From contig JACPEV010000008.1 in the NCBI GenBank assembly GCA_016183325.1, positions 472 to 64,471 of the forward strand: a DNA stretch of 64,000 nt, given 5' to 3'. Source of the stretch: Candidatus Curtissbacteria bacterium. GTDB taxonomy: Bacteria; Patescibacteriota; Microgenomatia; Curtissbacterales; GWA2-41-24. The notes under the pieces are model-generated. The model made no database searches and was not told the DNA's origin. It saw only the letters and a list, made by a program, of their open reading frames with translations. Shown piece after piece: positions 206 through 61,637 of this stretch. Both the position numbers and the translations under genes were made by a program. Position 1 is the stretch's first letter. Every line of letters starts with the position of its first letter.

Positions 206-311
206 ATAATTGTTCAAGAGTACCACGGGTTTTTACCCGTGGGTGAATTGAATAATTACGTACTCGCCGAAGGCGTAGCCTGAGGATACCACGACTGTAA
301 AGTCGTGGTAG
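206..311 (+). repeat. structured three-hairpin element, copy A; near-identical inverted copy at 13441-13549
   Basis: Three hairpins: ccacgggt-tttt-acccgtgg, cgcc-gaa-ggcg and ccacgact-gtaa-agtcgtgg (GNRA loop). An outer pairing joins taattgttc and gaataatta. The reverse complement matches 13441-13549 at about 95%. The element lies between the metallopeptidase gene and cutA. Confidence 0.5.
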
Positions 312-312
312 T

Positions 313-5467: not shown

Positions 5468-5593
5468 TCCCACAATTTCTTTGTGGCCTTTATTTTGGCG
5501 GGGTTAGTGTTGCCAATGGCAATGATCATAAAAACTTCACCTTTAGTTTATCAACAAAGATAGTAATTGCTCAGTCTCTTTGACAAAGTTTTA

Positions 5594-5672
5594 TTGTTCG
5601 AGCGTAGCCAAGTCTGACTTGGCGTAGTCGAGAACTTCTCGGCTCCCGAGTCTGACTCGGTCGCTCGAAGAA
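5594..5672. repeat. compound palindromic intergenic element (outer stem ttcgagcg/cgctcgaa; inner hairpins gccaag…cttggc, cgagaa…ttctcg, ctcgg…ccgag)
   Basis: Read directly. A related element occurs at 33371-33420, and a ttattgttcgaac start at 62476. Confidence 0.4.
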
Positions 5673-5708
5673 TATTGTGTCAAGGACTCTGAGTAGTTAC
5701 AGATTTAG

Positions 5709-13430: not shown

Positions 13431-13440
13431 TTTTCAAATG

Positions 13441-13549
13441 AACTACCACGACTTAACAGTCGTGGTATCCTCAGGCTACGCCTTCGGCGAGTACGTAATT
13501 GTTCAATTCACCCACGGGTAAAAACCCGTGGTACTTGCGAACAATTATA
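13441..13549 (-). repeat. structured three-hairpin element, copy B (inverted relative to copy A at 206-311)
   Basis: About 95% identical to the reverse complement of 206-311. It lies between the ftsZ stop and the cassette 1 start. Confidence 0.5.
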
Positions 13550-13615
13550 AATCCTGAATCCTTAACAGGTCGGAGTCGTTAGACTCCAGACAAGTCCAGG
13601 ATGACAAGAAGGTGG

Positions 13616-16158: not shown

Positions 16159-16836
16159 TCATTGGAATTCCTTGTACTCCACAACTGGCTTGTCAAAGCG
16201 TAGATCAATTTTTGCGATTTTTGACGAATTTATTTTAGATACTATCAAGACCTGCTGTAAAGAGTCAACCTGCTCATCTGGTGATTTTTTAGAGGAAAAG
16301 ATGGCGATAGTTCCCTGTTGATTGTAAGCGGCCAGATCCTCGTTTGATATGATTCTAATATTCTGGACATTATAATCAGATTTCATAAGGGGCATTGCTA
16401 ATTTTAGCGCAAAGACTATAATTTCGTCAGTGATTTTTTGCCCAAGTTGAAGTTTTAAATTTTGAGGCAAATAAAGAGTAGGCAGATTTTGATTATCATT
16501 TTGGACTATTTGGCCGTCTTCTGTTAGGGAAAGATTACTTGCTTCAATTTTGACGACAGGTTTTTTGACTGTAATATCCAAGACAATTTTTGCCGGGAAT
16601 TCTCTTTTGAGGCTGACTTTGTCGACACAAGAATACTGGTTTTTGATTTGGGCCTCCAAGGTTTTCTGGTCAATTAAAAGAATGTTTTGATTGCCTAAGT
16701 TCAGATCGTTTAAAAGATTCTGATTTGGAATACATTGTTGACTCTGGTTTGTGACAACTTCTTTAATTTTAAGAAGCGGGGAGAAAAAGATAGATACTAA
16801 AATAATAATAACCAAAACGGGCAGCACTTTGGCCAT
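16159..16836 (-). CDS. ftsQ: FtsQ/DivIB-type cell-division protein (TM + POTRA)
   Basis: N-terminal TM segment, POTRA-like β-rich domain, position between ftsA and murG. Confidence 0.55.
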   Translation of the reverse strand: MAKVLPVLVIIILVSIFFSPLLKIKEVVTNQSQQCIPNQNLLNDLNLGNQNILLIDQKTLEAQIKNQYSCVDKVSLKREFPAKIVLDITVKKPVVKIEASNLSLTEDGQIVQNDNQNLPTLYLPQNLKLQLGQKITDEIIVFALKLAMPLMKSDYNVQNIRIISNEDLAAYNQQGTIAIFSSKKSPDEQVDSLQQVLIVSKINSSKIAKIDLRFDKPVVEYKEFQ

Positions 16837-16882: not shown

Positions 16883-17045
16883 ATGGAGCTTGCTGAAAAC
16901 CTGTTAGCCTCGCAACAATGAGAAAAGACTACTTTGACAAACCATTAGTTTGTCATTCTGGCTTGTCCAGAATCCTTACTAGAATCAGATTCTGGAGTCG
17001 CTTCGCTCCCCAGAATGACAGTTTAACTTAGGTTTTCAGCAAGCT
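16883..17045. repeat. MITE/REP-like nested hairpin element in the ftsQ-murG spacer
   Basis: Outer 15-bp inverted repeat gcttgctgaaaacct/aggttttcagcaagc. Inner element 16952-17019 is bounded by GTCATTCTG/CAGAATGAC. A related element lies inside the glycosyltransferase gene at 60736. Confidence 0.45.
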
Positions 17046-17054
17046 CGTTAATGA

Positions 17055-18164
17055 TTAATAGTTAGTATATATAAAACGGGTGAGGATTTTTGCAGCGTCT
17101 TTGGGGAAGAATTTGGCGAGCTGATGAGCGCCTTTTTGATATTTTGAAAGATTTCGAGACATGTTTTGAACGGTTTTGATGAAAATTTCATGGGTTAGCA
17201 CTTCTTGTTTTAAGATAACCGCGCTTCCGGCTTTTTCCAAAATTTTGGCATTTGCCTGCTGTTCACCACTAGCTGACGCAGGCAAAGGGATTAGGATGGC
17301 AGGTTTTGCAACAGTTGCCAGTTCCCAGACAGTATTTGCACCGGAGCGGGAAATGACCAATAACGACTTTGAAAGTATGGACCCAATATCATCTGGATCA
17401 ATATCGGTAACTGGTAAGTAATTTTGTTTTTTTATTTGCTGGGCTTGTAGATGATCTTTTTTGAAGTTGGCAGTACCCAGTTGGTGAAGAACAGAGAACT
17501 GATCTAATTTATCAATTGTTTTGAAAATTAACTGATTGATAAAATGTGAGCCTTGATTGCCACCAGTAACAAAAACGAGACTTTGAGAATTTTGAAGAAA
17601 TTTTTTAATTTTAGTGTTAGAAGAAACAGTTTTGAAGATAGATGTTCTCAATAAATTACCTATAACTTCTGTCTTTGACGGGTCGAAAAATACTTTTGTT
17701 TGAGACCAGGTAAGAAACACTTTCTTAACGAAGAGTGCATTAAATTTATTGGCGAGACCTGGAACAACGGCTTGTTCATGAGTAATGGAGTCAATTCCCA
17801 AAAGCCATCCAGTAAAAACAATCGGTGATGAAACGTAGCTTCCGAAGGAAACAATTAGACTAGGTCTGATTCTAAGAAGAAAATAAAAACTTTGGAGAAA
17901 GCCAAGGGGAATTTTTAAGAGAGATAAAATTGTATATCTTGTGAATTTTCTTTGTAATCTACCTGTTACAATTTCAATAAACTCAATATTATTTTTAGTA
18001 ATTACTTGATATTCAGCAGAATAACTTTTTGAACCTTCTGTAGAATATTTACGTCCGAAAAAGTATATTTTTACTGATTCTTTTAGACGATCTTTTGATC
18101 TTAGCTCTTCTATGAGGGCGAGGGCTGGAGTGAGATGACCTCCGCAAATAACTATTTTTTTCAT
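17055..18164 (-). CDS. murG: MurG UDP-GlcNAc:lipid I GlcNAc transferase
   Basis: N-terminal G-loop ICGGHLTPALAL, GT28 fold. 369 aa. Confidence 0.8.
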   Translation of the reverse strand: MKKIVICGGHLTPALALIEELRSKDRLKESVKIYFFGRKYSTEGSKSYSAEYQVITKNNIEFIEIVTGRLQRKFTRYTILSLLKIPLGFLQSFYFLLRIRPSLIVSFGSYVSSPIVFTGWLLGIDSITHEQAVVPGLANKFNALFVKKVFLTWSQTKVFFDPSKTEVIGNLLRTSIFKTVSSNTKIKKFLQNSQSLVFVTGGNQGSHFINQLIFKTIDKLDQFSVLHQLGTANFKKDHLQAQQIKKQNYLPVTDIDPDDIGSILSKSLLVISRSGANTVWELATVAKPAILIPLPASASGEQQANAKILEKAGSAVILKQEVLTHEIFIKTVQNMSRNLSKYQKGAHQLAKFFPKDAAKILTRFIYTNY

Positions 18165-33152: not shown

Positions 33153-33157
33153 AAGTT

Positions 33158-33268
33158 TGTATCTTCCCCTTACGGGCTTGGATGTGGCACCTTCTTTGAC
33201 TTTTTGAGACAAAGGGTTGCCAGACGGATCATTGGGCCAAGTCCCATACCGTCATTCTCGATACTTTG
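33158..33268 (-). ncRNA. SAM-I (S-box) riboswitch aptamer controlling metK
   Basis: The minus strand reads UAUCGAGAAUGACGG…GGGACUUGGCCCAAUGAUCCGUCUGGCAACC…AAGGUGCCACAUCCAAGC…GGGGAAGAUA. This matches the S-box core elements (GGGA-CUGGCCC-AUGA-CCC-GCAACC, AAGGUGC-AA-UCC, closing P1 UAUC/GAUA). The terminator follows. Confidence 0.7.
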
Positions 33269-51899: not shown

Positions 51900-53409
51900 G
51901 AATATTTGCAAGTGTGTCCACTTTTACTCTTTCCTGTTTGGCCGTGTCACGATCCCGGATCGTGACAGTGTCGTTTTCCAAAGTTTCGAAGTCGATGGTG
52001 ATGCAATAGGGTGTGCCGATTTCGTCTTGGGCGAAGTAGCGTTTGCCGATGTTGCCGCGATCGTCCCAAGCAACAGGTTGCAGTAAATGGTGAATGGATA
52101 ATTGTGAATAGAGCAAGCGGGCTTTTTTGACGAGATCGGGTTTATTGGCAAGAAGCGGGAAAACGGCGGCTTTAAAGGGGGCGAGTTTGGGGTGGAGTTT
52201 AAGAATTACTCTCTTTGCTATATCCCCCGAACCCGGTTTGGAGGATTTTTGCAAACCGGGTTCGTCTTTTGCTGGTTCCTCTGTATAAGCATCGATTAAG
52301 AAAAAAAGCGCGGCGCGATCGACTCCTCCCGAAGTTTCGATGATATATGGAAGGTATTTTTTATTTTTCGCAGGCTCAAAATAGGTCATATCGACGCCGG
52401 AATGTTTTTGATGCTGAGACAGATCCCAGTCTCCCCTATTGTGAATTCCTTCAAATTCTTTCCAGCCTCCGCCAGAGGCGGATAGATCGTATTCAATATC
52501 CCAGGCGTCTTTGGCGTAGTGAGCACGCTCGCCTTCTTCGTGCTGACGAAACCTAAGTTTGTCTTTTTTCATTCCGAGCTCCAAGTACCATTTCATGCGC
52601 TCGTTTTTCCAGTATTCGTACCATTTTTCGGATTCTTCCTTTTCTGGTTTGACATAATATTGAAGTTCCATTTGTTCAAATTCACGGGAGCGAAATGTAA
52701 AGTTACCGGGAGTAATTTCGTTTCGGAAGGCCTTGCCGATTTGGGCAATTCCGAAAGGAATTTGGACTCGAGTGGAATCGAGGATGTTTTTGAAATTGAC
52801 ATGGACACCTTGAGTGATTTCACCGCGAAGATAAACTTTTTGTTTGGCGTCTTCAACAACGCCGAGTTTGGCTTCAACAAGGAGATTGAATTTTTTAGGT
52901 TCTGTAAAATTGTGCTCTTTATCTTTGGTGGGATTTTCTACGATTTCTTTAAAATCATGCTTATTTTTACCATCCATGCAGTAAATGAACGGTAAAATTT
53001 CGCTTTGCTCTTGAGATAATGACCAAGAAGTTACATTTGTTGAGATCGAACTTGTCTTTGTAAAAACCATGTGCTTCAATTTCTCTTTTGCTTCTGTAAC
53101 ATTATCAGCCCTGAACCTCTTATGACAAATTTTGCATTCTACAAGTGGATCAGTAAACGCTTTGACATGACCGGAGGCTTCCCAGACTTTGGGATTCATG
53201 AGAATTGCAGTGTCGATGCCCACTACATCGTCCCTACCGTAAACCATCGACTGCCAAAAAGCCTTTTTGATGTTGTTTTTGAGCTCGACTCCGAGAGGAC
53301 CATAATCCCAAGTTCCCCCAAGTCCGCCGTAGATTTCAGAACCGGGATAAATAAAGCCACGACGCTTTGCGAGAGAAACAATTTTTTCTAAATTCGTAAT
53401 TTTATCCAC
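51880..53409 (-). CDS. glyQS: glycine--tRNA ligase (dimeric class II GlyQS type)
   Basis: 509 aa with class II motifs and an anticodon-binding C-terminus. Confidence 0.9.
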   Translation of the reverse strand: MDKITNLEKIVSLAKRRGFIYPGSEIYGGLGGTWDYGPLGVELKNNIKKAFWQSMVYGRDDVVGIDTAILMNPKVWEASGHVKAFTDPLVECKICHKRFRADNVTEAKEKLKHMVFTKTSSISTNVTSWSLSQEQSEILPFIYCMDGKNKHDFKEIVENPTKDKEHNFTEPKKFNLLVEAKLGVVEDAKQKVYLRGEITQGVHVNFKNILDSTRVQIPFGIAQIGKAFRNEITPGNFTFRSREFEQMELQYYVKPEKEESEKWYEYWKNERMKWYLELGMKKDKLRFRQHEEGERAHYAKDAWDIEYDLSASGGGWKEFEGIHNRGDWDLSQHQKHSGVDMTYFEPAKNKKYLPYIIETSGGVDRAALFFLIDAYTEEPAKDEPGLQKSSKPGSGDIAKRVILKLHPKLAPFKAAVFPLLANKPDLVKKARLLYSQLSIHHLLQPVAWDDRGNIGKRYFAQDEIGTPYCITIDFETLENDTVTIRDRDTAKQERVKVDTLANILMKKFS

Positions 53410-53507: not shown

Positions 53508-54341
53508 TTATTGTGACGATACTACTACAAATGTGGCGAAGTTGGAAATGACGGCGCTTATGGTCTTGTTTTTCTCGTTGAAGGTTGACTCTAACTCTTC
53601 TATCTGCCCGTCATTATGATTATATGCATATATCTTTGCGTCCTCGTCTGATTTTATTTCGAGCTTGGCATTTTGTAAGAACTTAGGAGGAATTGAAAAG
53701 ATTCCGTAAACCGGAAGCTTGGCTGATTTAAATTTATCGTCTTTGGGAATTCCTACTGTGTCTGCTGTAATAACCCAATAATCTTTATCGAGACTTAAGC
53801 TAGAAACCGTGATATTTCCGAGTGAATCATGGATTGAGTTTGTTTGACCTGTGACACGCATTATGTCCCACTTTGTTTCAGAAAGATATTCGGTTTCACC
53901 CTTGAACATGTGCATCGTAAGTTTGCCGTCTGTAATGCCTTGATCAGGGCTTCTGACTTTCTTAGAAGCAGTGCCTAAAAGAATCGATTTTTTGAATTTC
54001 GCGTCTTTAGTATTAACATCTGTACCTGTTGCGCCCCTTTCTAATTTTTGTCCAGGAACCTGAGGGTTATCTGCAAGATAAATCAGTTCATATTCGATTT
54101 TGTCAAAACTGGCCATATTTTCAACAGAAATGACAATTTCTACACCGTCTGATGTCGGGGTTAAAGTTACATATGGTCTTTCTTCTGTTTTAAGGTTTGC
54201 GACTTCTTTTACCTCGTTTGAGGCAACATCTGTTTCGATTTCTTTTGGTTTTTTTTGGAAGATAAAGAGAAAATAAATGGCAGTTATTATGACCAGTAAA
54301 CTTATAGCGGCAATAATATAGGTGCTGCGCTTAGATTCCAT
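53508..54341 (-). CDS. hypothetical membrane-anchored extracytoplasmic protein
   Basis: 277 aa, N-terminal TM segment, β-rich. Confidence 0.35.
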   Translation of the reverse strand: MESKRSTYIIAAISLLVIITAIYFLFIFQKKPKEIETDVASNEVKEVANLKTEERPYVTLTPTSDGVEIVISVENMASFDKIEYELIYLADNPQVPGQKLERGATGTDVNTKDAKFKKSILLGTASKKVRSPDQGITDGKLTMHMFKGETEYLSETKWDIMRVTGQTNSIHDSLGNITVSSLSLDKDYWVITADTVGIPKDDKFKSAKLPVYGIFSIPPKFLQNAKLEIKSDEDAKIYAYNHNDGQIEELESTFNEKNKTISAVISNFATFVVVSSQ

Positions 54342-54963
54342 TTAAAAATCGTGAGGTGGTTAGCTTTGATTGTGTCAGGCCCTCAATTAATCTATCAAGA
54401 AATAATAAAATGTTGGAGTAAGAATTTTGAGTCAATTTAATTTTTCCCTTGATGGTTTCAAAATTGTCTTTCTCAAATGTGGCAAGGATGTACTTTACTT
54501 TTGGATTTTTAAGATAATGACTAGTAAAAAAGCCAAGGCTTGAAAGAAGTTTAATTTTGAATACACACGAAAGCAGAGAAAATTGTTCGTCTTTTTCTAT
54601 TCTTTTTAAGAACTGCACAAGAAGAATGAAAACTTCTAGATTCTTTTGATGGGATGCTGTCAAATTTTCAACGATTTCCAAAAGATGATAGATGCGATTG
54701 GCGCGCTCTTCGGTGAAATTGGCGATGCCAAAAGCGCGTTTGGTTTCGGCTTCTGTCACGAGATCAATGTTTTTACCGCGGGCAACAAAAAGTTTGCACC
54801 AATTGCCAAGTTCAATGTGGCCGGCCTTTTTAGATCGTGGACGACGGGCACCTTTGGCGATTGCCGTGATTTTGCCGTGGTCGCGGGTGAAGATTGTCAA
54901 AAGCCTGTCCGCTTCCCCAAAGTTGCGCTTTTTGAGAATTACTCCCTCGGTCGCAAAGTACAT
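54331..54963 (-). CDS. recO: DNA repair protein RecO
   Basis: The N-terminal OB fold (GVILKKRNFGEADRLLTIFTRDHGKITAIAKGARR) is typical of RecO. Confidence 0.8.
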   Translation of the reverse strand: MYFATEGVILKKRNFGEADRLLTIFTRDHGKITAIAKGARRPRSKKAGHIELGNWCKLFVARGKNIDLVTEAETKRAFGIANFTEERANRIYHLLEIVENLTASHQKNLEVFILLVQFLKRIEKDEQFSLLSCVFKIKLLSSLGFFTSHYLKNPKVKYILATFEKDNFETIKGKIKLTQNSYSNILLFLDRLIEGLTQSKLTTSRFLNGI

Positions 54964-55092: not shown

Positions 55093-55146
55093 CCCTACTC
55101 GCCAAGCTAATCCGAACCCGGTTTGGTCTACGTTGGCGAGCAAGGG
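55093..55146. repeat. REP-like hairpin flanking the RAYT gene (left)
   Basis: ccctactcgccaagctaatccgaacccggtttggtctacgttggcgagcaaggg is the near reverse complement of 55844-55896. ctcgccaa/ttggcgag forms an internal stem. Confidence 0.55.
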
Positions 55147-55821
55147 TTATTCTAGGGTGAGATGTTTGATTATGTTAAGTTTTTGCTGATAGCCGGCTTG
55201 ATCATAAACGAATTTTCTGTAATCTTGAATGGATTTAAAGTAATTTAAAATTACCTGCGTGTTTACAAAGCTTTGAACATTTCCTTCATTTAAATAACTT
55301 CTAAATGACGACCACGGATAGTTATCTAAATCCCCTATTCTGATAATAAAAGCAGACACGGGATTCAAGTGAATATATCTTGAGACATGTAATAATTGTT
55401 CATCATTTTCAATTCTCACTGCTTTGAACATAGATTGAAATAGTGAGCCAGTTCTTTCATTTTTAGTATTAAAGTATTTCGAGCAACTATGCTGAAAGTT
55501 TGTCATAAAATTGGAAATTGATTTTTCCTCTAAAGCTTTTAACAAGAAATGTACATGGTTTGGCATAATACAAAAAGCAATAATTTCTAAGAAAGGTTTA
55601 TAACTTCGTGCTAAATTTTCTAAAAAAACAGCCCTTTGAGCTGCTGGTAATTGTTTATACTTGGAAAACTTTAATGGCGGTTTTGGGTATCGATAAAAAC
55701 TGATAACCTCAAGAGCTCGCTGATAATCCTTTTGGCTTAGAAAAATTGGCTGTTTGGCAATACTTCTGTTAAAAACATGATAAACTTCTCCAGGAACTAA
55801 AGGTATTTTGCGATAAGGCAT
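55147..55821 (-). CDS. IS200/IS605-like Y1 (HUH) transposase of the REP-associated tyrosine transposase (RAYT) type
   Basis: YHVFNRS N-terminus, HUH motif MPNHVHFLL, C-terminal SRYIHLNPV with a candidate catalytic Tyr. 224 aa. Flanked by REP-like inverted repeats. Confidence 0.7.
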   Translation of the reverse strand: MPYRKIPLVPGEVYHVFNRSIAKQPIFLSQKDYQRALEVISFYRYPKPPLKFSKYKQLPAAQRAVFLENLARSYKPFLEIIAFCIMPNHVHFLLKALEEKSISNFMTNFQHSCSKYFNTKNERTGSLFQSMFKAVRIENDEQLLHVSRYIHLNPVSAFIIRIGDLDNYPWSSFRSYLNEGNVQSFVNTQVILNYFKSIQDYRKFVYDQAGYQQKLNIIKHLTLE

Positions 55822-55843
55822 ATCTTGATCTTAATCGAGTATT

Positions 55844-55896
55844 CCTTACTTGTCAACGTATTCCGAACCGGGTTCGGACTAGCTTGGCGAGTAAGG
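55844..55896. repeat. REP-like hairpin flanking the RAYT gene (right)
   Basis: ccttacttgtcaacgtattccgaaccgggttcggactagcttggcgagtaagg contains the perfect palindrome ccgaaccgggttcgg. Confidence 0.55.
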
Positions 55897-55972
55897 ATAA
55901 GGCAGTTTGCAAGTTTTGCGGGCTTTGATTTGTTCAAGACCTCTGTATCAAGTATCATATATCAAACGGCAT

Positions 55973-59245: not shown

Positions 59246-60349
59246 TTACAAATACTGCTCTTTTTTCTCTTCTTTTAACTTTTCAATTATTTTTTTGACA
59301 TCATGAGTTCTGTCTTTTGTGCAAACAAGTAGAGCATCCTCTGTATCAACTACAATAAGACCTTCGAGGCCGATAGCTGCTATTATTTTTTTGTCCGTTG
59401 ATGAATAGATTAAACAATCTTTCAGATCAAGATCAACAACATTCCCCTGCAGAATATTTTCCCGGGGCTGTGAGGACATTTCTTCTTTTAATTCGTCCCA
59501 AGTCCCGACGTCTCTCCATCCAAGATCAGCTGAGATTACAACTTGATCTGTTCCTGTAAGATGAGAGTTGATGGCATAATCAATCGAATTTTTGGGAATT
59601 TTTTCGTATTCTTTTTGAATAACCGCCTGCTGCTGATGTGTCCCCCAAGCCTTCTGGATTTTCATCAAAGCCTCCCAACCCTCTTTGAAATGTTTTTCGT
59701 AAAGGTTCAGCATTTTTTGGGCACTCCAGACAGAATATCCAATATGCCAAAGGTATTCCCATGACTGGACAAATTTTTTGGCCGTCTTGTAATCGGGTTT
59801 TTCAATCTGGCTGACGAATTCAAAAATGGCTAGACCATCGTCGCTTTTAAGCATTTTCCCAACCTTCAAATAACCTAAGGCGATGCTGGGGAGAGTTGGG
59901 CGGACTCCGATTTCCACAAATTTGTCCATCTCCTTGACAGCTTTATCGGCAAGCCGTATAGCCTTTAAAAATTCCTGTTCGTTTCTAACTACATGATCGC
60001 TCCAAAGCCCCAGTACATTAGGATTATCAAATTTTTTATCTAGAACTGCGGCTGATAAGCCAACGGCGGCGGCTGTATCGCGCATTTGGGGCTCAATGAT
60101 GATATTCTCAAGGGGAATAGCTGGAGCTAGCTTAACAATCCATTGTACGTTATCACGCGTTGTAACCGGAAAGATATCATGCATTTGAAATTCAGGTTTA
60201 AGACGGTTGATCATCATTTCAAATGTAGATTCGCCTTCTATTAACGGCTGAAACTGCTTGGGTAAATTTCTGCGGCTCATTGGCCACATGCGAGTTCCGC
60301 TGCCGCCACAGAAAAGAGCAATTTTTAAATCTTTATGAGAATTTTGCAT
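59246..60349 (-). CDS. mannose-1-phosphate guanylyltransferase-like NDP-sugar pyrophosphorylase
   Basis: LFCGGSGTRMWPMSRRNLPKQF is the ManC-type signature. 367 aa. Confidence 0.7.
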   Translation of the reverse strand: MQNSHKDLKIALFCGGSGTRMWPMSRRNLPKQFQPLIEGESTFEMMINRLKPEFQMHDIFPVTTRDNVQWIVKLAPAIPLENIIIEPQMRDTAAAVGLSAAVLDKKFDNPNVLGLWSDHVVRNEQEFLKAIRLADKAVKEMDKFVEIGVRPTLPSIALGYLKVGKMLKSDDGLAIFEFVSQIEKPDYKTAKKFVQSWEYLWHIGYSVWSAQKMLNLYEKHFKEGWEALMKIQKAWGTHQQQAVIQKEYEKIPKNSIDYAINSHLTGTDQVVISADLGWRDVGTWDELKEEMSSQPRENILQGNVVDLDLKDCLIYSSTDKKIIAAIGLEGLIVVDTEDALLVCTKDRTHDVKKIIEKLKEEKKEQYL

Positions 60350-61637
60350 ACTTTGTGACTTGAAGTTTAAGTTTGCTGACGAACTCAGCTTGCGAAAATC
60401 TTAGAGTGTTATTTCTACAGGCTGTGCTATTCCATTTTACCTTACTTGCCCTAATAATTGCATCTTGAAGAGATATTGCGCTTTGGTCGCTGAAAAAAAG
60501 ACCTGTTTGCCCTTCAATTATGATTTCTCTAACTCCGCCTTTACTGTAAGCGATAACCGGCAGACCACAAGCTTGGGCCTCAACTGCGGCAATGCCAAAA
60601 TCTTCTTCCTGCGTTACGATTAACGCCTTGGCATTTTGATAAAGGTTGCGAAGTTGTTCCTTAGAAACAGCACCAAGAAACTCGATATCGTTTGTTATTG
60701 TTCGAGCTTGTCGAGAACTTACCTTATTCCCTTCTGTCATTCCGAACTTGTCTGATTTTATCGACCCGAATGGGTTTCGGAATCTTAGCGTAGATCCTGA
60801 AACGAGTTCAGGATGACGTGGCGTGGTATGGTAACTTCTCGACTCCCCTGCACCATACGGTGCAGGGTCGCTCAAAGAATAATTAAGTGAAGATGTATTC
60901 TTGGCTATATTTTGCAGCCTCCTCTCGTCCGGTCCGGTTCCCACAATTTTGAGGTTAACTTTAAGAACTTGGGCCGCTTTTATGGCAATTTCTACTTTTT
61001 TCCACTTCACCAGTCTCGTGACGATTAGAAAAAAATCATTTGACCGTTTACCTTTGGTCGCTTGGAAAAAATCTGTATCGACTGCGGGGTAAACCACTTC
61101 ACTATCTATACCGTAATGTTCTTTGACTAGTTGGGCGACATTTTTGGAATTGGCAATATAGCGATCTACTCTGGTTGAGGCAATTTTATCCCATTTCTCA
61201 AGCCATTTAAGAAGCGGAGAAAAAAGTATTCTTAAAATTTGGGGCAAATATTCCATTTTGGCTTTTTCACTCCAGAGGAATCTGGGAACGCTATTGATAT
61301 AGCAGATATGGAGAGTTTTAGGTTTGGTAATAATACCTTTGGCAAATCTGGTTGTTGATGAGATAACCAGATCAAAATCGTTGAAATTGAAACTCTCAAA
61401 GGCAATTGGGTAAAGCGGCAGGAGAAATTTATACCACTTTCGCGCAATAGCGTATTTTTGGAATATTTGCAGGAATGAGGGTCGGACCCTATTTCGGCTT
61501 ATTGTGGCGGGCAGTTTATTCCAATCAACAAGCGAGGTATAGATAGGAGCCTCGGACCAAATTTGAGCAATTGCGGCAAACAAATTCTCCGCTCCCCCAC
61601 TTTGGATGAAGTCATCGTGGACGAGGGCAATTTTCAT
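60333..61637 (-). CDS. GT4-family glycosyltransferase with an in-frame ~50-aa element-derived insertion
   Basis: N-terminal KIALVHDDF…GGAE and C-terminal EFLGAVSKEQL…EDFGIAAVEAQACGLPVIA are the GT4 cores. The insertion SDPAPYGAGESRSYHTTPRHPELVSGSTLRFRNPFGSIKSDKFGM lies between them. Confidence 0.75.
   Translation of the reverse strand: MKIALVHDDFIQSGGAENLFAAIAQIWSEAPIYTSLVDWNKLPATISRNRVRPSFLQIFQKYAIARKWYKFLLPLYPIAFESFNFNDFDLVISSTTRFAKGIITKPKTLHICYINSVPRFLWSEKAKMEYLPQILRILFSPLLKWLEKWDKIASTRVDRYIANSKNVAQLVKEHYGIDSEVVYPAVDTDFFQATKGKRSNDFFLIVTRLVKWKKVEIAIKAAQVLKVNLKIVGTGPDERRLQNIAKNTSSLNYSLSDPAPYGAGESRSYHTTPRHPELVSGSTLRFRNPFGSIKSDKFGMTEGNKVSSRQARTITNDIEFLGAVSKEQLRNLYQNAKALIVTQEEDFGIAAVEAQACGLPVIAYSKGGVREIIIEGQTGLFFSDQSAISLQDAIIRASKVKWNSTACRNNTLRFSQAEFVSKLKLQVTKYAKFS
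60736..60870. repeat. GC-rich hairpin element inserted in frame in the glycosyltransferase gene
   Basis: gtcattccgaa…ttcggaatc, cctgaaacgagttcagg and ctgcaccatacggtgcag. It is bounded by GTCATTCCG/AGGATGAC, as the 16952-17019 element is bounded by GTCATTCTG/CAGAATGAC. Confidence 0.5.

What the first reader, a model, noticed from the sequence alone, without database searches (positions are those of the whole stretch)
60736..60870. In-frame insertion of a GC-rich hairpin element into a GT4 glycosyltransferase; related element between ftsQ and murG
A ~135-nt GC-rich segment bounded by GTCATTCCG … AGGATGAC contains three hairpins. It sits between the conserved N- and C-halves of the glycosyltransferase without breaking the frame and adds about 45 residues (SDPAPYGAGESRSYHTTPRHPELVSGSTLRFRNPFGSIKSDKFGM) just before the EFLG motif. 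A similar element bounded by GTCATTCTG … CAGAATGAC, nested inside a 15-bp outer inverted repeat, lies in the ftsQ-murG spacer (16883-17045). This looks like a miniature palindromic element family able to land inside genes while preserving the ORF.
Basis: seen in the sequence. Interest (0 to 1): 0.65.

Follow-up and report, generated by a model that had tools for sequence, protein, structure and literature searches.

The report
Palindromic repeat inserted in-frame in glycosyltransferase
A glycosyltransferase gene of a Curtissbacteria (candidate phyla radiation) genome carries, in a floppy surface loop, a nested pair of selfish palindromic DNA repeats of a widespread, already described kind (CGTC-tagged REPs, the class that includes some Rickettsia palindromic elements), and the same loop is hit again and again in related genomes.

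Summary
GT4 gene 60333-61637(-) has a 76-aa linker where most of 120 orthologues have 6-15 aa. The extra DNA (about 60696-60883) is a nested composite. An 82-nt head-to-head dimer of hairpin repeats (60736-60817, GTCAT-stem-loop-stem-ATC ... GAT-stem-loop-stem-ATGAC) sits in the central hairpin of a second palindromic element. That second element has an intergenic copy at 5592-5675. The dimer meets every sequence feature of the CGTC-tagged REP superfamily (Di Nocera 2013; includes RPE-4 and RPE-6). A model built only from other genomes hits it at E=1.7e-8, and also hits both monomers of the murG/ftsQ-spacer element. The same dimer type occurs in many phyla, mostly between genes, occasionally in-frame (AlaRS, TruB, Dus). 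Only the used frame is open (chance about 0.006). AlphaFold2 places the insert as a disordered loop between a helix and a strand. In an unbiased set of orthologous loci, four of six repeat-bearing places lie in this ~25-nt linker, so it is a hot spot. Close relatives carry different repeat subtypes. The RAYT-like transposase in the window pairs with other, GTAG-type palindromes. Verdict: a real, new member of a known kind. How it moves is unknown.

The parts
60333..61637 (-). GT4 (GT-B fold) glycosyltransferase gene, 434 aa, first gene of a conserved GT4 - ManC-like NTP transferase - Bac_transf cluster
   Evidence: ORF. Pfam Glycos_transf_1 matches in two stretches split by the insert. It is 100% identical to an NCBI Curtissbacteria protein. 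Synteny is seen, and Pfam hits of the neighbours. The model has a GT-B fold and matches BshA, MshA, PimA and HepE.
60696..60883 (-). Whole composite insertion: a 'family B' palindromic element (ends TATTCTTYGAGCGA ... GCTCGAACAATA) that carries the REP dimer in its central hairpin. It is translated as part of a 76-aa linker.
   Evidence: Comparison with the intergenic copy at 5592-5675, with L007 (same element in the orthologous linker but without the dimer), and with L081 and L168.
60736..60817 (.). CGTC-type REP head-to-head heterodimer, 82 nt, with the GTC tags on the outside
60793..60817 (-). REP monomer M1: (C)GTC-ATCCTGAA-CTCGT-TTCAGGAT-C. It encodes RHPELVSGS.
   Evidence: Covariance model R1 scores it 43.7 bits, E=1.7e-8. 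The loop CTCGT is the third commonest among 216 monomers.
60736..60784 (+). REP monomer M2: (T)GTC-ATTCCGAA-[29-nt loop starting CTTGT]-TTCGGAAT-C. On the coding strand it reads ...SDKFGMT.
   Evidence: The long loop is why model R1 misses it.
60710..60726 (.). One arm of the central palindrome of family B (pairs with 60827-60843)
   Evidence: Inverted repeat I22, 17 nt, 88% complementary. The same arms, GTCGAGAAGTT / AAGTTCTCGAC, occur in L007.
60827..60843 (.). Other arm of the central palindrome of family B
60846..60867 (.). Perfect 9-bp hairpin CCCTGCACC-ATAC-GGTGCAGGG. This is the variable internal hairpin module of family B. It encodes DPAPYGAGE.
   Evidence: The equivalent position holds GTCCGAAGGAC in L007 and CCGAGTCAGACTCGG at 5.6 kb.
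16886..17046 (.). Second composite, between murG (17055-18164, -) and the ftsQ-position ORF (16159-16836, -). A perfect 17-bp outer inverted repeat encloses a REP dimer.
   Evidence: (I12).
16952..17019 (.). CGTC-type REP head-to-head dimer with stems ATTCTGG/CCAGAAT. Monomers are at 16952-16974(+) and 16988-17019(-).
   Evidence: R1 hits score 26.4 bits (E=3e-4) and 22.6 bits (E=2.5e-3). Alignment.
13548..13605 (-). Single REP monomer with a 36-nt loop, 10 nt downstream of the ftsZ stop codon
5592..5675 (-). Intergenic copy of family B with an uninterrupted central palindrome (CCGAGAAGTTCTCGAC)

Best explanation
The extra DNA in the GT4 gene is selfish or neutral repetitive DNA, not an evolved protein domain.

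What it is:
- A palindromic element of a Curtissbacteria-restricted family ('family B') occupies the short linker between helix 238-250 and strand 318-322 of the C-terminal Rossmann domain.
- A head-to-head dimer of CGTC-tagged REP hairpins lies inside the loop of that element's central hairpin.
- The composite happens to be in frame and free of stops. It is therefore translated as a roughly 66-residue disordered, Ser/Thr/Gly/Pro/Asn-rich loop. The loop lies on the alpha-to-beta side of the Rossmann sheet, away from the catalytic cleft, and the enzyme stays intact.

Shown:
- the repeat identity
- the nesting
- the absence of the segment from most orthologues
- the open frame
- the disordered-loop prediction
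- the conserved catalytic residues
- the recurrent occupation of the same linker in other lineages

Inferred:
- That the copies arrived by insertion into single-stranded or hairpin DNA. REP dimers are often nested in other palindromes.
- That selection removed out-of-frame or badly placed copies.
- That pre-existing palindromes in the linker attract further repeats, which would produce both the hot spot and the fast turnover.

The enzyme that moves CGTC REPs is unknown. The RAYT-like transposase in the window appears to serve a different, GTAG-type repeat.
For: Insert absent from orthologues:
- Most of 120 orthologues have a 6-15 aa linker. The query has 76 aa.
- At DNA level, linkers are 21-45 nt in 70+ loci.

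Repeat identity:
- The same GTCAT...ATC/GAT...ATGAC architecture, with co-varying stems, is seen in L001, L002, L003, L006 and L008.
- Both variable stem positions form Watson-Crick pairs in 213 of 216 monomers, against 116 and 139 expected.
- The base before GTC is T or C in 87% of cases.
- Model R1 hits the window copies.
- The published family definition and its REP-encoded peptides (VIPAKAGI, DSRFRGND, WIPAFAGMT, WTPDQVRGD) match.

Nesting:
- Family B copies are documented.
- L007 carries family B in the same linker without the dimer.
- 29 of 126 dimers elsewhere lie inside an outer inverted repeat of at least 8 nt, against 4 of 126 in the control.
- The literature describes dimers nested in palindromes.

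Selection on the frame:
- The used frame has 0 stops. The other five have 2-7.
- The chance of staying in frame and stop-free is about 0.006.
- All invariant GT4 residues are kept.

Structure:
- pLDDT is below 50 for residues 249-314, inside an otherwise confident GT-B model.

Mostly extragenic elsewhere:
- Only about 6 of 127 dimers have at least 60 open codons on both sides.
- Genuine in-frame cases are in AlaRS, TruB and Dus.

Hot spot:
- 4 of 6 repeat-bearing places in about 330 kb of unbiased orthologous loci lie in this linker.
- Inserts sit in at least 9 separate clades.
- The close relatives WIN, P0002 and L137 carry different repeat subtypes.
Against: - No empty-versus-filled pair of otherwise near-identical sequences was found, so insertion itself is inferred, not seen.
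- No target-site duplication is evident in general. The AAGTT duplication around the nested segment rests on a single base.
- The hairpins in the gene are still perfect (8-9 bp). This could mean a recent arrival or active maintenance.
- The hot spot exceeds what a pure selection filter predicts. Neutral intergenic DNA in the same loci holds fewer copies. Some targeting or function is therefore not excluded.
- There is no expression or protein evidence.
Confidence: 0.82

Rival explanations
1. The repeat in the linker is functional and retained by selection. It could act as an RNA or DNA structure inside the first gene of the glycan operon (mRNA stability, pausing, recombination or switching site). 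Alternatively, it could act as a flexible peptide spacer. The hot spot would then reflect long-term retention with compensatory changes, not repeated arrival.
For: - Stems stay perfectly paired while their sequence changes between lineages.
- Repeat subtypes show some phylogenetic clustering. HPEF/ILN..QND types lie in one part of the tree and VIPAKAGIQ/WIP.QVRDD types in another.
- Linker occupation is far above the density in intergenic DNA.
- The region folds at z = -3.7.
Against: - Most orthologues (about 90%) lack any repeat and keep a 7-15 aa linker.
- The closest relatives carry different subtypes.
- The same covariation is seen in intergenic copies in unrelated phyla, so it belongs to the repeat family and not to this gene.
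- The peptide is predicted to be disordered.
- No terminator-like site and no Rfam family match the region.
Confidence: 0.1
2. The hairpins were not transposed. They arose or were renewed in place, by template switching or gene conversion from other REP copies, in a linker that is already prone to repeats.
For: - The same linker holds monomers, dimers, loop-expanded monomers and heptanucleotide arrays in different lineages.
- There is no target-site duplication.
- No dedicated transposase is known for CGTC REPs.
Against: - Near-identical 25-nt monomers occur in unrelated phyla. This needs a common source or a strong common constraint.
- The nested architecture looks like discrete insertion events.
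Confidence: 0.12
3. The GT4 gene is a decaying pseudogene, or the insertion is a metagenome assembly artefact at a repeat.
For: - The window comes from a MAG contig. Repeats can cause chimeric joins.
- In L137 the gene stops right after a REP dimer and an unrelated ORF follows.
Against: - Both flanks of the insert belong to the same gene in the same frame.
- All invariant residues are kept, and only the used frame is open (P about 0.006).
- Independent assemblies of other lineages show the same kind of in-frame insert.
- The operon context is intact.
Confidence: 0.04

Closest known systems
CGTC-tagged REPs (Di Nocera, De Gregorio & Rocco 2013, BMC Genomics 14:522; families CGTC-1 to -4)
   Same: - Unpaired (C/T)GTC tag.
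- 7-8 bp stem that begins with A-T and T-A pairs.
- 5-nt loop and a short C-rich tail.
- Head-to-head dimers with a short spacer, made of unlike partners (heterodimers).
- Mostly just downstream of genes, occasionally inside ORFs.
- Dimers sometimes sit inside longer palindromes.
- No transposase gene next to them.
- Orthologues here encode the same peptides the paper lists (VIPAKAGI, WIP..QVRDD).
   Different: - Found here in Patescibacteria (CPR), which the 2013 survey did not cover.
- Many monomers have loops expanded to 25-36 nt.
- Here the dimer is nested in a second repeat, inside a coding region.
- Repeated occupation of one orthologous linker across lineages. The paper noted a shared site only for Xanthomonas recB.
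Rickettsia palindromic elements (RPE; Ogata et al. 2000; reviewed in PMC10969869)
   Same: Palindromic repeats inserted in frame in unrelated housekeeping genes at positions thought compatible with fold and function. RPE-4 and RPE-6 are themselves CGTC REPs.
   Different: The classic RPE-1 is about 150 bp and encodes a conserved peptide. No similarity to RPE-1 was tested here. The host is a free-living or episymbiotic CPR bacterium, not Rickettsia.
REPIN / RAYT systems (GTAG REPs mobilised by REP-associated tyrosine transposases)
   Same: Two inverted REP hairpins form a larger hairpin, and the proposed substrate is single-stranded DNA. A RAYT-like gene lies in the same window (55147-55821).
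   Different: The tag is GTC, not GTAG. The RAYT-like gene is flanked by its own different 55-nt palindromes with GTAG/GTAT-like tags, as are its homologues in other Microgenomates. No CGTC REP flanks any of them.
Bacterial MITEs that fuse in frame with host ORFs (Coxiella QMITE1, intragenic ERIC, Correia/NEMIS)
   Same: Small non-autonomous palindromic elements that fold strongly and occasionally make translational fusions.
   Different: Classical MITEs have terminal inverted repeats matching an IS element and a target-site duplication. Neither was found for the REP dimer. Family B has 12-13 nt inverted ends but no identified parent IS.

Membership tests
CGTC-tagged REP superfamily | Unpaired terminal tag CGTC (often TGTC or CCTC) | tested here: met
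   M1 has CGTC. M2, both monomers at 16952-17019 and the singleton at 13605 have TGTC. Among 126 dimers elsewhere, T or C precedes GTC in 87%.
CGTC-tagged REP superfamily | Stem of 8-9 bp whose first two pairs are A-T and T-A | tested here: met
   ATCCTGAA/TTCAGGAT and ATTCCGAA/TTCGGAAT are 8 bp. ATTCTGG/CCAGAAT is 7 bp.
CGTC-tagged REP superfamily | Loop of 4-5 nt of a few recurrent types | tested here: inconclusive
   M1 (CTCGT) and 16952 (CTTGT) have standard 5-nt loops, which rank third and first among 216 monomers. M2, 17019(-) and 13605(-) have expanded loops of 29, 14 and 36 nt. The paper reports variant loops only for a few taxa.
CGTC-tagged REP superfamily | Short unpaired tail after the stem (consensus CCA) | tested here: met
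   Tails are CTA, CTT, CCT and CTG in the window, and CCA in L003 and L006.
CGTC-tagged REP superfamily | Predominantly head-to-head dimers (tags outside) | tested here: met
   Both window dimers have GTC at the outer ends. Definition.
CGTC-tagged REP superfamily | Multi-copy in the genome | tested here: inconclusive
   There are five monomers at three places in the 64 kb available. The rest of the genome could not be searched.
CGTC-tagged REP superfamily | Not flanking a tyrosine transposase gene | tested here: met
   The RAYT-like gene 55147-55821 and four homologues are flanked by other palindromes. No Y1 transposase was found in the 120 REP-bearing loci.
Rickettsia palindromic elements (RPE-1 type) | About 100-150 bp element of conserved sequence encoding a conserved peptide | not tested
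   No RPE-1 sequence was available for comparison. The link to RPE runs only through RPE-4 and RPE-6 being CGTC REPs, as stated in the paper.
REPIN/RAYT system | REPs of the family flank the RAYT gene in inverted orientation, and carry a GTAG tag | tested here: not met
   The flanks of 55147-55821 are 55-nt palindromes of another sequence with a GTAG/GTAT tag. The gene scores 59.6 bits on NF047646, below the cut-off of 80.
Classical MITE | Terminal inverted repeats plus a target-site duplication | tested here: not met
   For the REP dimer there is no excess of flanking direct repeats over the control. For family B, inverted ends of 12-13 nt are present, but a duplication could not be established.
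Intein or intron | Splicing motifs or a catalytic RNA fold, with no need for an open frame (intron) | tested here: not met
   No Rfam family matches. The 66 extra residues are low-complexity and disordered. The frame is kept open, which a spliced-out RNA would not require.
GT4 glycosyltransferase (host gene) | GT-B fold with Glycos_transf_1 C-domain and conserved E-x7-E region | tested here: met
   Pfam hits. EEDFGIAAVEA is conserved. Structure and PDB matches.

The most novel reading that the evidence does not exclude
The alpha-to-beta linker of this GT4 may be a true homing site. On this reading, CGTC REP dimers are still mobile in CPR bacteria and integrate preferentially into hairpin loops of palindromes that are already there. 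The linker would then be a self-reinforcing landing pad.

The series of states seen in orthologues would be a natural record of the still unknown CGTC REP mobilisation mechanism:
- bare linker
- heptamer array
- monomer
- dimer
- dimer nested in family B
- truncation at the dimer

The turnover might also diversify or switch a surface-glycan enzyme.
Probability: 0.15. Interest if true: 0.65.

Novelty: new member of a known kind. Interest (0 to 1): 0.38.

Why it matters
The finding extends in-frame 'selfish DNA in genes', best known from Rickettsia, to the candidate phyla radiation. It also shows that near-identical CGTC REP dimers are shared by very distant phyla.

For annotation, the peptides RHPE.xSGS, ..QV[QR][ND]D, ..FGMT and VIPAKAGIQ in CPR proteins mark repeat DNA, not protein motifs.

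For biology, the orthologous GT4 linker is a compact natural test bed. It holds many lineages, many repeat states and one site. It could help answer an open question: how do CGTC REPs, which have no known transposase, spread and choose targets? If the explanation is only tolerance of a floppy loop, the finding is ordinary.

Tried and rejected
1. Known RNA families. Rfam at gathering threshold over the window found only a SAM riboswitch elsewhere. Permissive scans of both element regions gave only noise.

2. Terminator role. No terminator-like site lies in or near the insert.

3. RAYT as the mobiliser. The window has a RAYT-like Y1 transposase. Its flanks, and those of four homologues, are different GTAG-like palindromes. 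None of the 120 REP-bearing loci encodes a homologue.

4. Target-site duplications. There is no excess of flanking direct repeats in 126 dimers. The AAGTT duplication around the nested segment depends on one base and is left as tentative.

5. Frame-breaking inserts in orthologues. All 79 metagenome loci gave one in-frame match apart from one duplication. Only L137 is cut at the dimer.

6. Literature. Exact repeat strings and REP-derived peptides returned nothing relevant. No paper on REPs in Patescibacteria was found in the searchable library.

7. DNA of the closest full-length orthologue, P0002, could not be fetched.

8. The simple 9-mer count GTCATTCYG alone is not significant: 3 matches against 0.8 expected, and 9 of 100 shuffles reach 3. 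Significance comes from the model and the architecture.

Full report
**Observation.** The gene at 60333-61637(-) is an unbroken 434-aa ORF. It has GT4 domains whose C-terminal Pfam match is split in two. It is identical to an NCBI protein of a Candidatus Curtissbacteria MAG. The region contains three perfect hairpins and folds better than every shuffle on both strands (z about -3.7). The second element in the murG/ftsQ-position spacer is also real. It lies inside a perfect 17-bp inverted repeat. murG, ftsA and ftsZ are confirmed by Pfam; the 'ftsQ' ORF is not.

**Anatomy.** On the coding strand the core reads GTCAT-CCTGAA-CTCGT-TTCAGG-ATC, an 8-nt spacer, then GAT-TCCGAA-[29-nt loop]-TTCGGA-ATGAC. 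That is two inverted hairpin monomers with the GTC ends outside, 82 nt in all (60736-60817).

This dimer sits in the loop of an outer palindrome, 60710-60726 / 60827-60843. That palindrome, the third hairpin (60846-60867) and the ends TATTCTTTGAGCGA ... GCTCGAACAATA form a second repeat, called family B here.

Family B has other copies:
- An intergenic copy at 5592-5675 with an uninterrupted central palindrome.
- Copies in L081 and L168.
- A copy in the same GT4 linker of L007, without the dimer.

The insertion is therefore about 60696-60883 and is a nested composite. A third place in the window, 13548-13605(-), holds a single monomer 10 nt after the ftsZ stop.

**Orthologues.** Most of 120 orthologues have 6-15 residues between the helix ending ..RL and the strand IEFLG. 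The query has 76. Gene order (GT4, ManC-like, Bac_transf, DUF4012, RecO) is conserved, so these are true orthologues.

About ten orthologues also have inserts at this point. Their DNA shows the same architecture with different, co-varying stems: TCCTGAA/TTCAGGA, TTCCCGC/GCGGGAA, TCCCGAA/TTCGGGA and TTCTCGA/TCGAGAA. They are read in different frames (HPEF.SGS... or VIPAKAGIQ...). Monomer-only and remnant versions exist (ILNQVQND, WIPKQVRDD, VRDD).

**What the repeat is.** They come from many Patescibacteria lineages, Sphingomonadales, Bacteroidota, Ignavibacteria, Calditrichia, Treponema, Gastranaerophilales, Scalindua, Nitrospirota and others.

In 216 monomers, the two stem positions that the pattern left free form Watson-Crick pairs in 213 cases, against 116 and 139 expected. 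The loops are few: CTTGT, TTTAT, CTCGT and CTTGA. T or C precedes GTC in 87% of cases.

A covariance model built only from these foreign monomers finds the window copies at E=1.7e-8, 3e-4 and 2.5e-3, and nothing else convincing in the window.

This matches the published CGTC-tagged REP superfamily:
- a (C/T)GTC tag
- a stem that starts with A-T and T-A pairs
- a loop of 4-5 nt
- a short tail
- head-to-head dimers
- occasional intragenic copies
- dimers inside longer palindromes in some species
- no dedicated transposase
- RPE-4 and RPE-6 of Rickettsia conorii as members

The paper's table of REP-encoded residues lists VIPAKAGI, SFPRKRES, DSRFRGND, WIPAFAGMT and WTPDQVRGD. These are the peptides seen in the orthologues here. 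No paper on such repeats in CPR bacteria was found in the searchable library.

**Consequence for the protein.** AlphaFold2 gives a confident GT-B fold. Residues 249-314 are the exception: pLDDT is below 50 and there is no secondary structure, between helix 238-250 and strand 318-322. The nearest solved folds are GT4 enzymes. An alpha-to-beta connection of a Rossmann domain lies on the side away from the ligand-binding edge. This last point is inferred from fold topology; no distance was measured.

Only the used frame is open across the linker. The other five frames have 2-7 stops. A shuffled insert of this size stays in frame and stop-free about 0.6% of the time. All family-invariant residues are kept. 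The gene is thus under selection, and the insert is most likely translated.

**Is ORF preservation a property of the element?** Probably not. Of 127 distinct dimers elsewhere, about six have at least 60 open codons on both sides. Real in-frame cases include AlaRS (Gracilibacteria), TruB (Parasphingorhabdus) and Dus, each at a break in the Pfam match. At each end of a monomer, one frame in three runs into TGA. This was read directly from the sequence.

In L137, the closest relative of the N-terminal half (71% identity), the gene reads through a VIPA-type dimer into a stop. A serS-like ORF start follows. This is either a rearrangement at the repeat or a chimeric assembly.

**Hot spot.** The 79 metagenome loci were chosen through conserved peptides outside the linker. 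In them, the model finds repeats in the GT4 linker at four distinct loci (L129, L130, L137, L143) and at only two other places in about 330 kb. The linker is about 0.7% of that DNA. By my calculation the binomial probability is near 4e-8. Shared ancestry weakens this figure.

Inserts occur in at least nine separate clades of a neighbour-joining tree, each with insert-free sisters. Three close relatives carry three different states.

Elsewhere, 29 of 126 dimers lie inside an outer inverted repeat of at least 8 nt, against 4 of 126 in a control. Both window dimers do too. This fits integration into hairpin loops, which would make a linker that already holds a palindrome a preferred target. That step is inference.

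**Mobilisation.** The window encodes a RAYT-like Y1 transposase (55147-55821). It matches Pfam Y1_Tnp and scores 59.6 bits on NF047646, below that model's cut-off. It lies next to recO and is flanked by inverted 55-nt palindromes. Homologues are common in Microgenomates. Each has its own flanking hairpin with a GTAG-like tag. That is the classic GTAG REP/RAYT pairing, not CGTC. How the CGTC dimer moves therefore remains unknown, as the literature also states.

**Verdict.** The element is a new, CPR-borne and unusually nested instance of a known kind: CGTC REPs and RPE-like in-frame palindromes. The recurrent use of one orthologous linker is the most interesting part. It is not explained by tolerance alone.

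Noticed in passing
window 55093-55897: A RAYT-like Y1 transposase gene (55147-55821, -) lies next to recO (54331-54963). It is flanked by two inverted 53-55 nt palindromes (55093-55145, 55843-55897) carrying GTAG/GTAT-like tags. The arrangement is syntenic in L007. Homologues in Levy-, Gottesman- and other Microgenomates each have their own flanking hairpin.
   Followed up: partly
window 207-312 (+) and 13440-13545 (-): Two inverted copies of a roughly 105-nt repeat lie 13 kb apart. Each contains two perfect hairpins (CCACGGGT..ACCCGTGG and TACCACGAC..GTCGTGGTA). This is a further repeat family, unrelated to the REPs. One copy abuts the REP singleton downstream of ftsZ.
   Followed up: no
L183 / L136, L188, L135, L170, L138 (GT4 linker): In several orthologues the linker is exactly 45 nt and consists of about five tandem heptanucleotides. 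The unit differs by lineage (AACTACC, AGTTGTC, CAGTTAC...), giving period-7 peptides such as LTTNYQLPTTNYK. Their origin and any relation to the REPs are unexplained.
   Followed up: partly
L137 1255-1406: The closest relative of the window's GT4 N-half ends in a stop codon directly after a VIPA-type REP dimer. An ORF starting MLDIKFIRENPKL (serS-like) follows. This is either a rearrangement at the repeat or a chimeric contig.
   Followed up: no
L185 146-222: A REP monomer with a long loop appears to lie in frame (..SRHPELIGP...YSGS..) in a different glycosyltransferase gene, just before its ..YVGNAYP strand.
   Followed up: no
window 33156-33267 (-): A SAM riboswitch (RF00162) scores 44.7 bits, just above its gathering score of 44.4.
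   Followed up: no
window 52227-52290: The sequence CCCCCGAACCCGGTTTGGAGG...CAAACCGGGTTCG partly resembles the core of the palindromes flanking the RAYT-like gene. It may be a third copy of that family.
   Followed up: no
window 16886-16902 / 17030-17046: The outer inverted repeat GAGCTTGCTGAAAACCT resembles the 41-bp palindrome (..aaGCTT-GAAAaACC..) reported to enclose all CGTC-1 dimers of Halothiobacillus neapolitanus. The comparison was by eye only.
   Followed up: no
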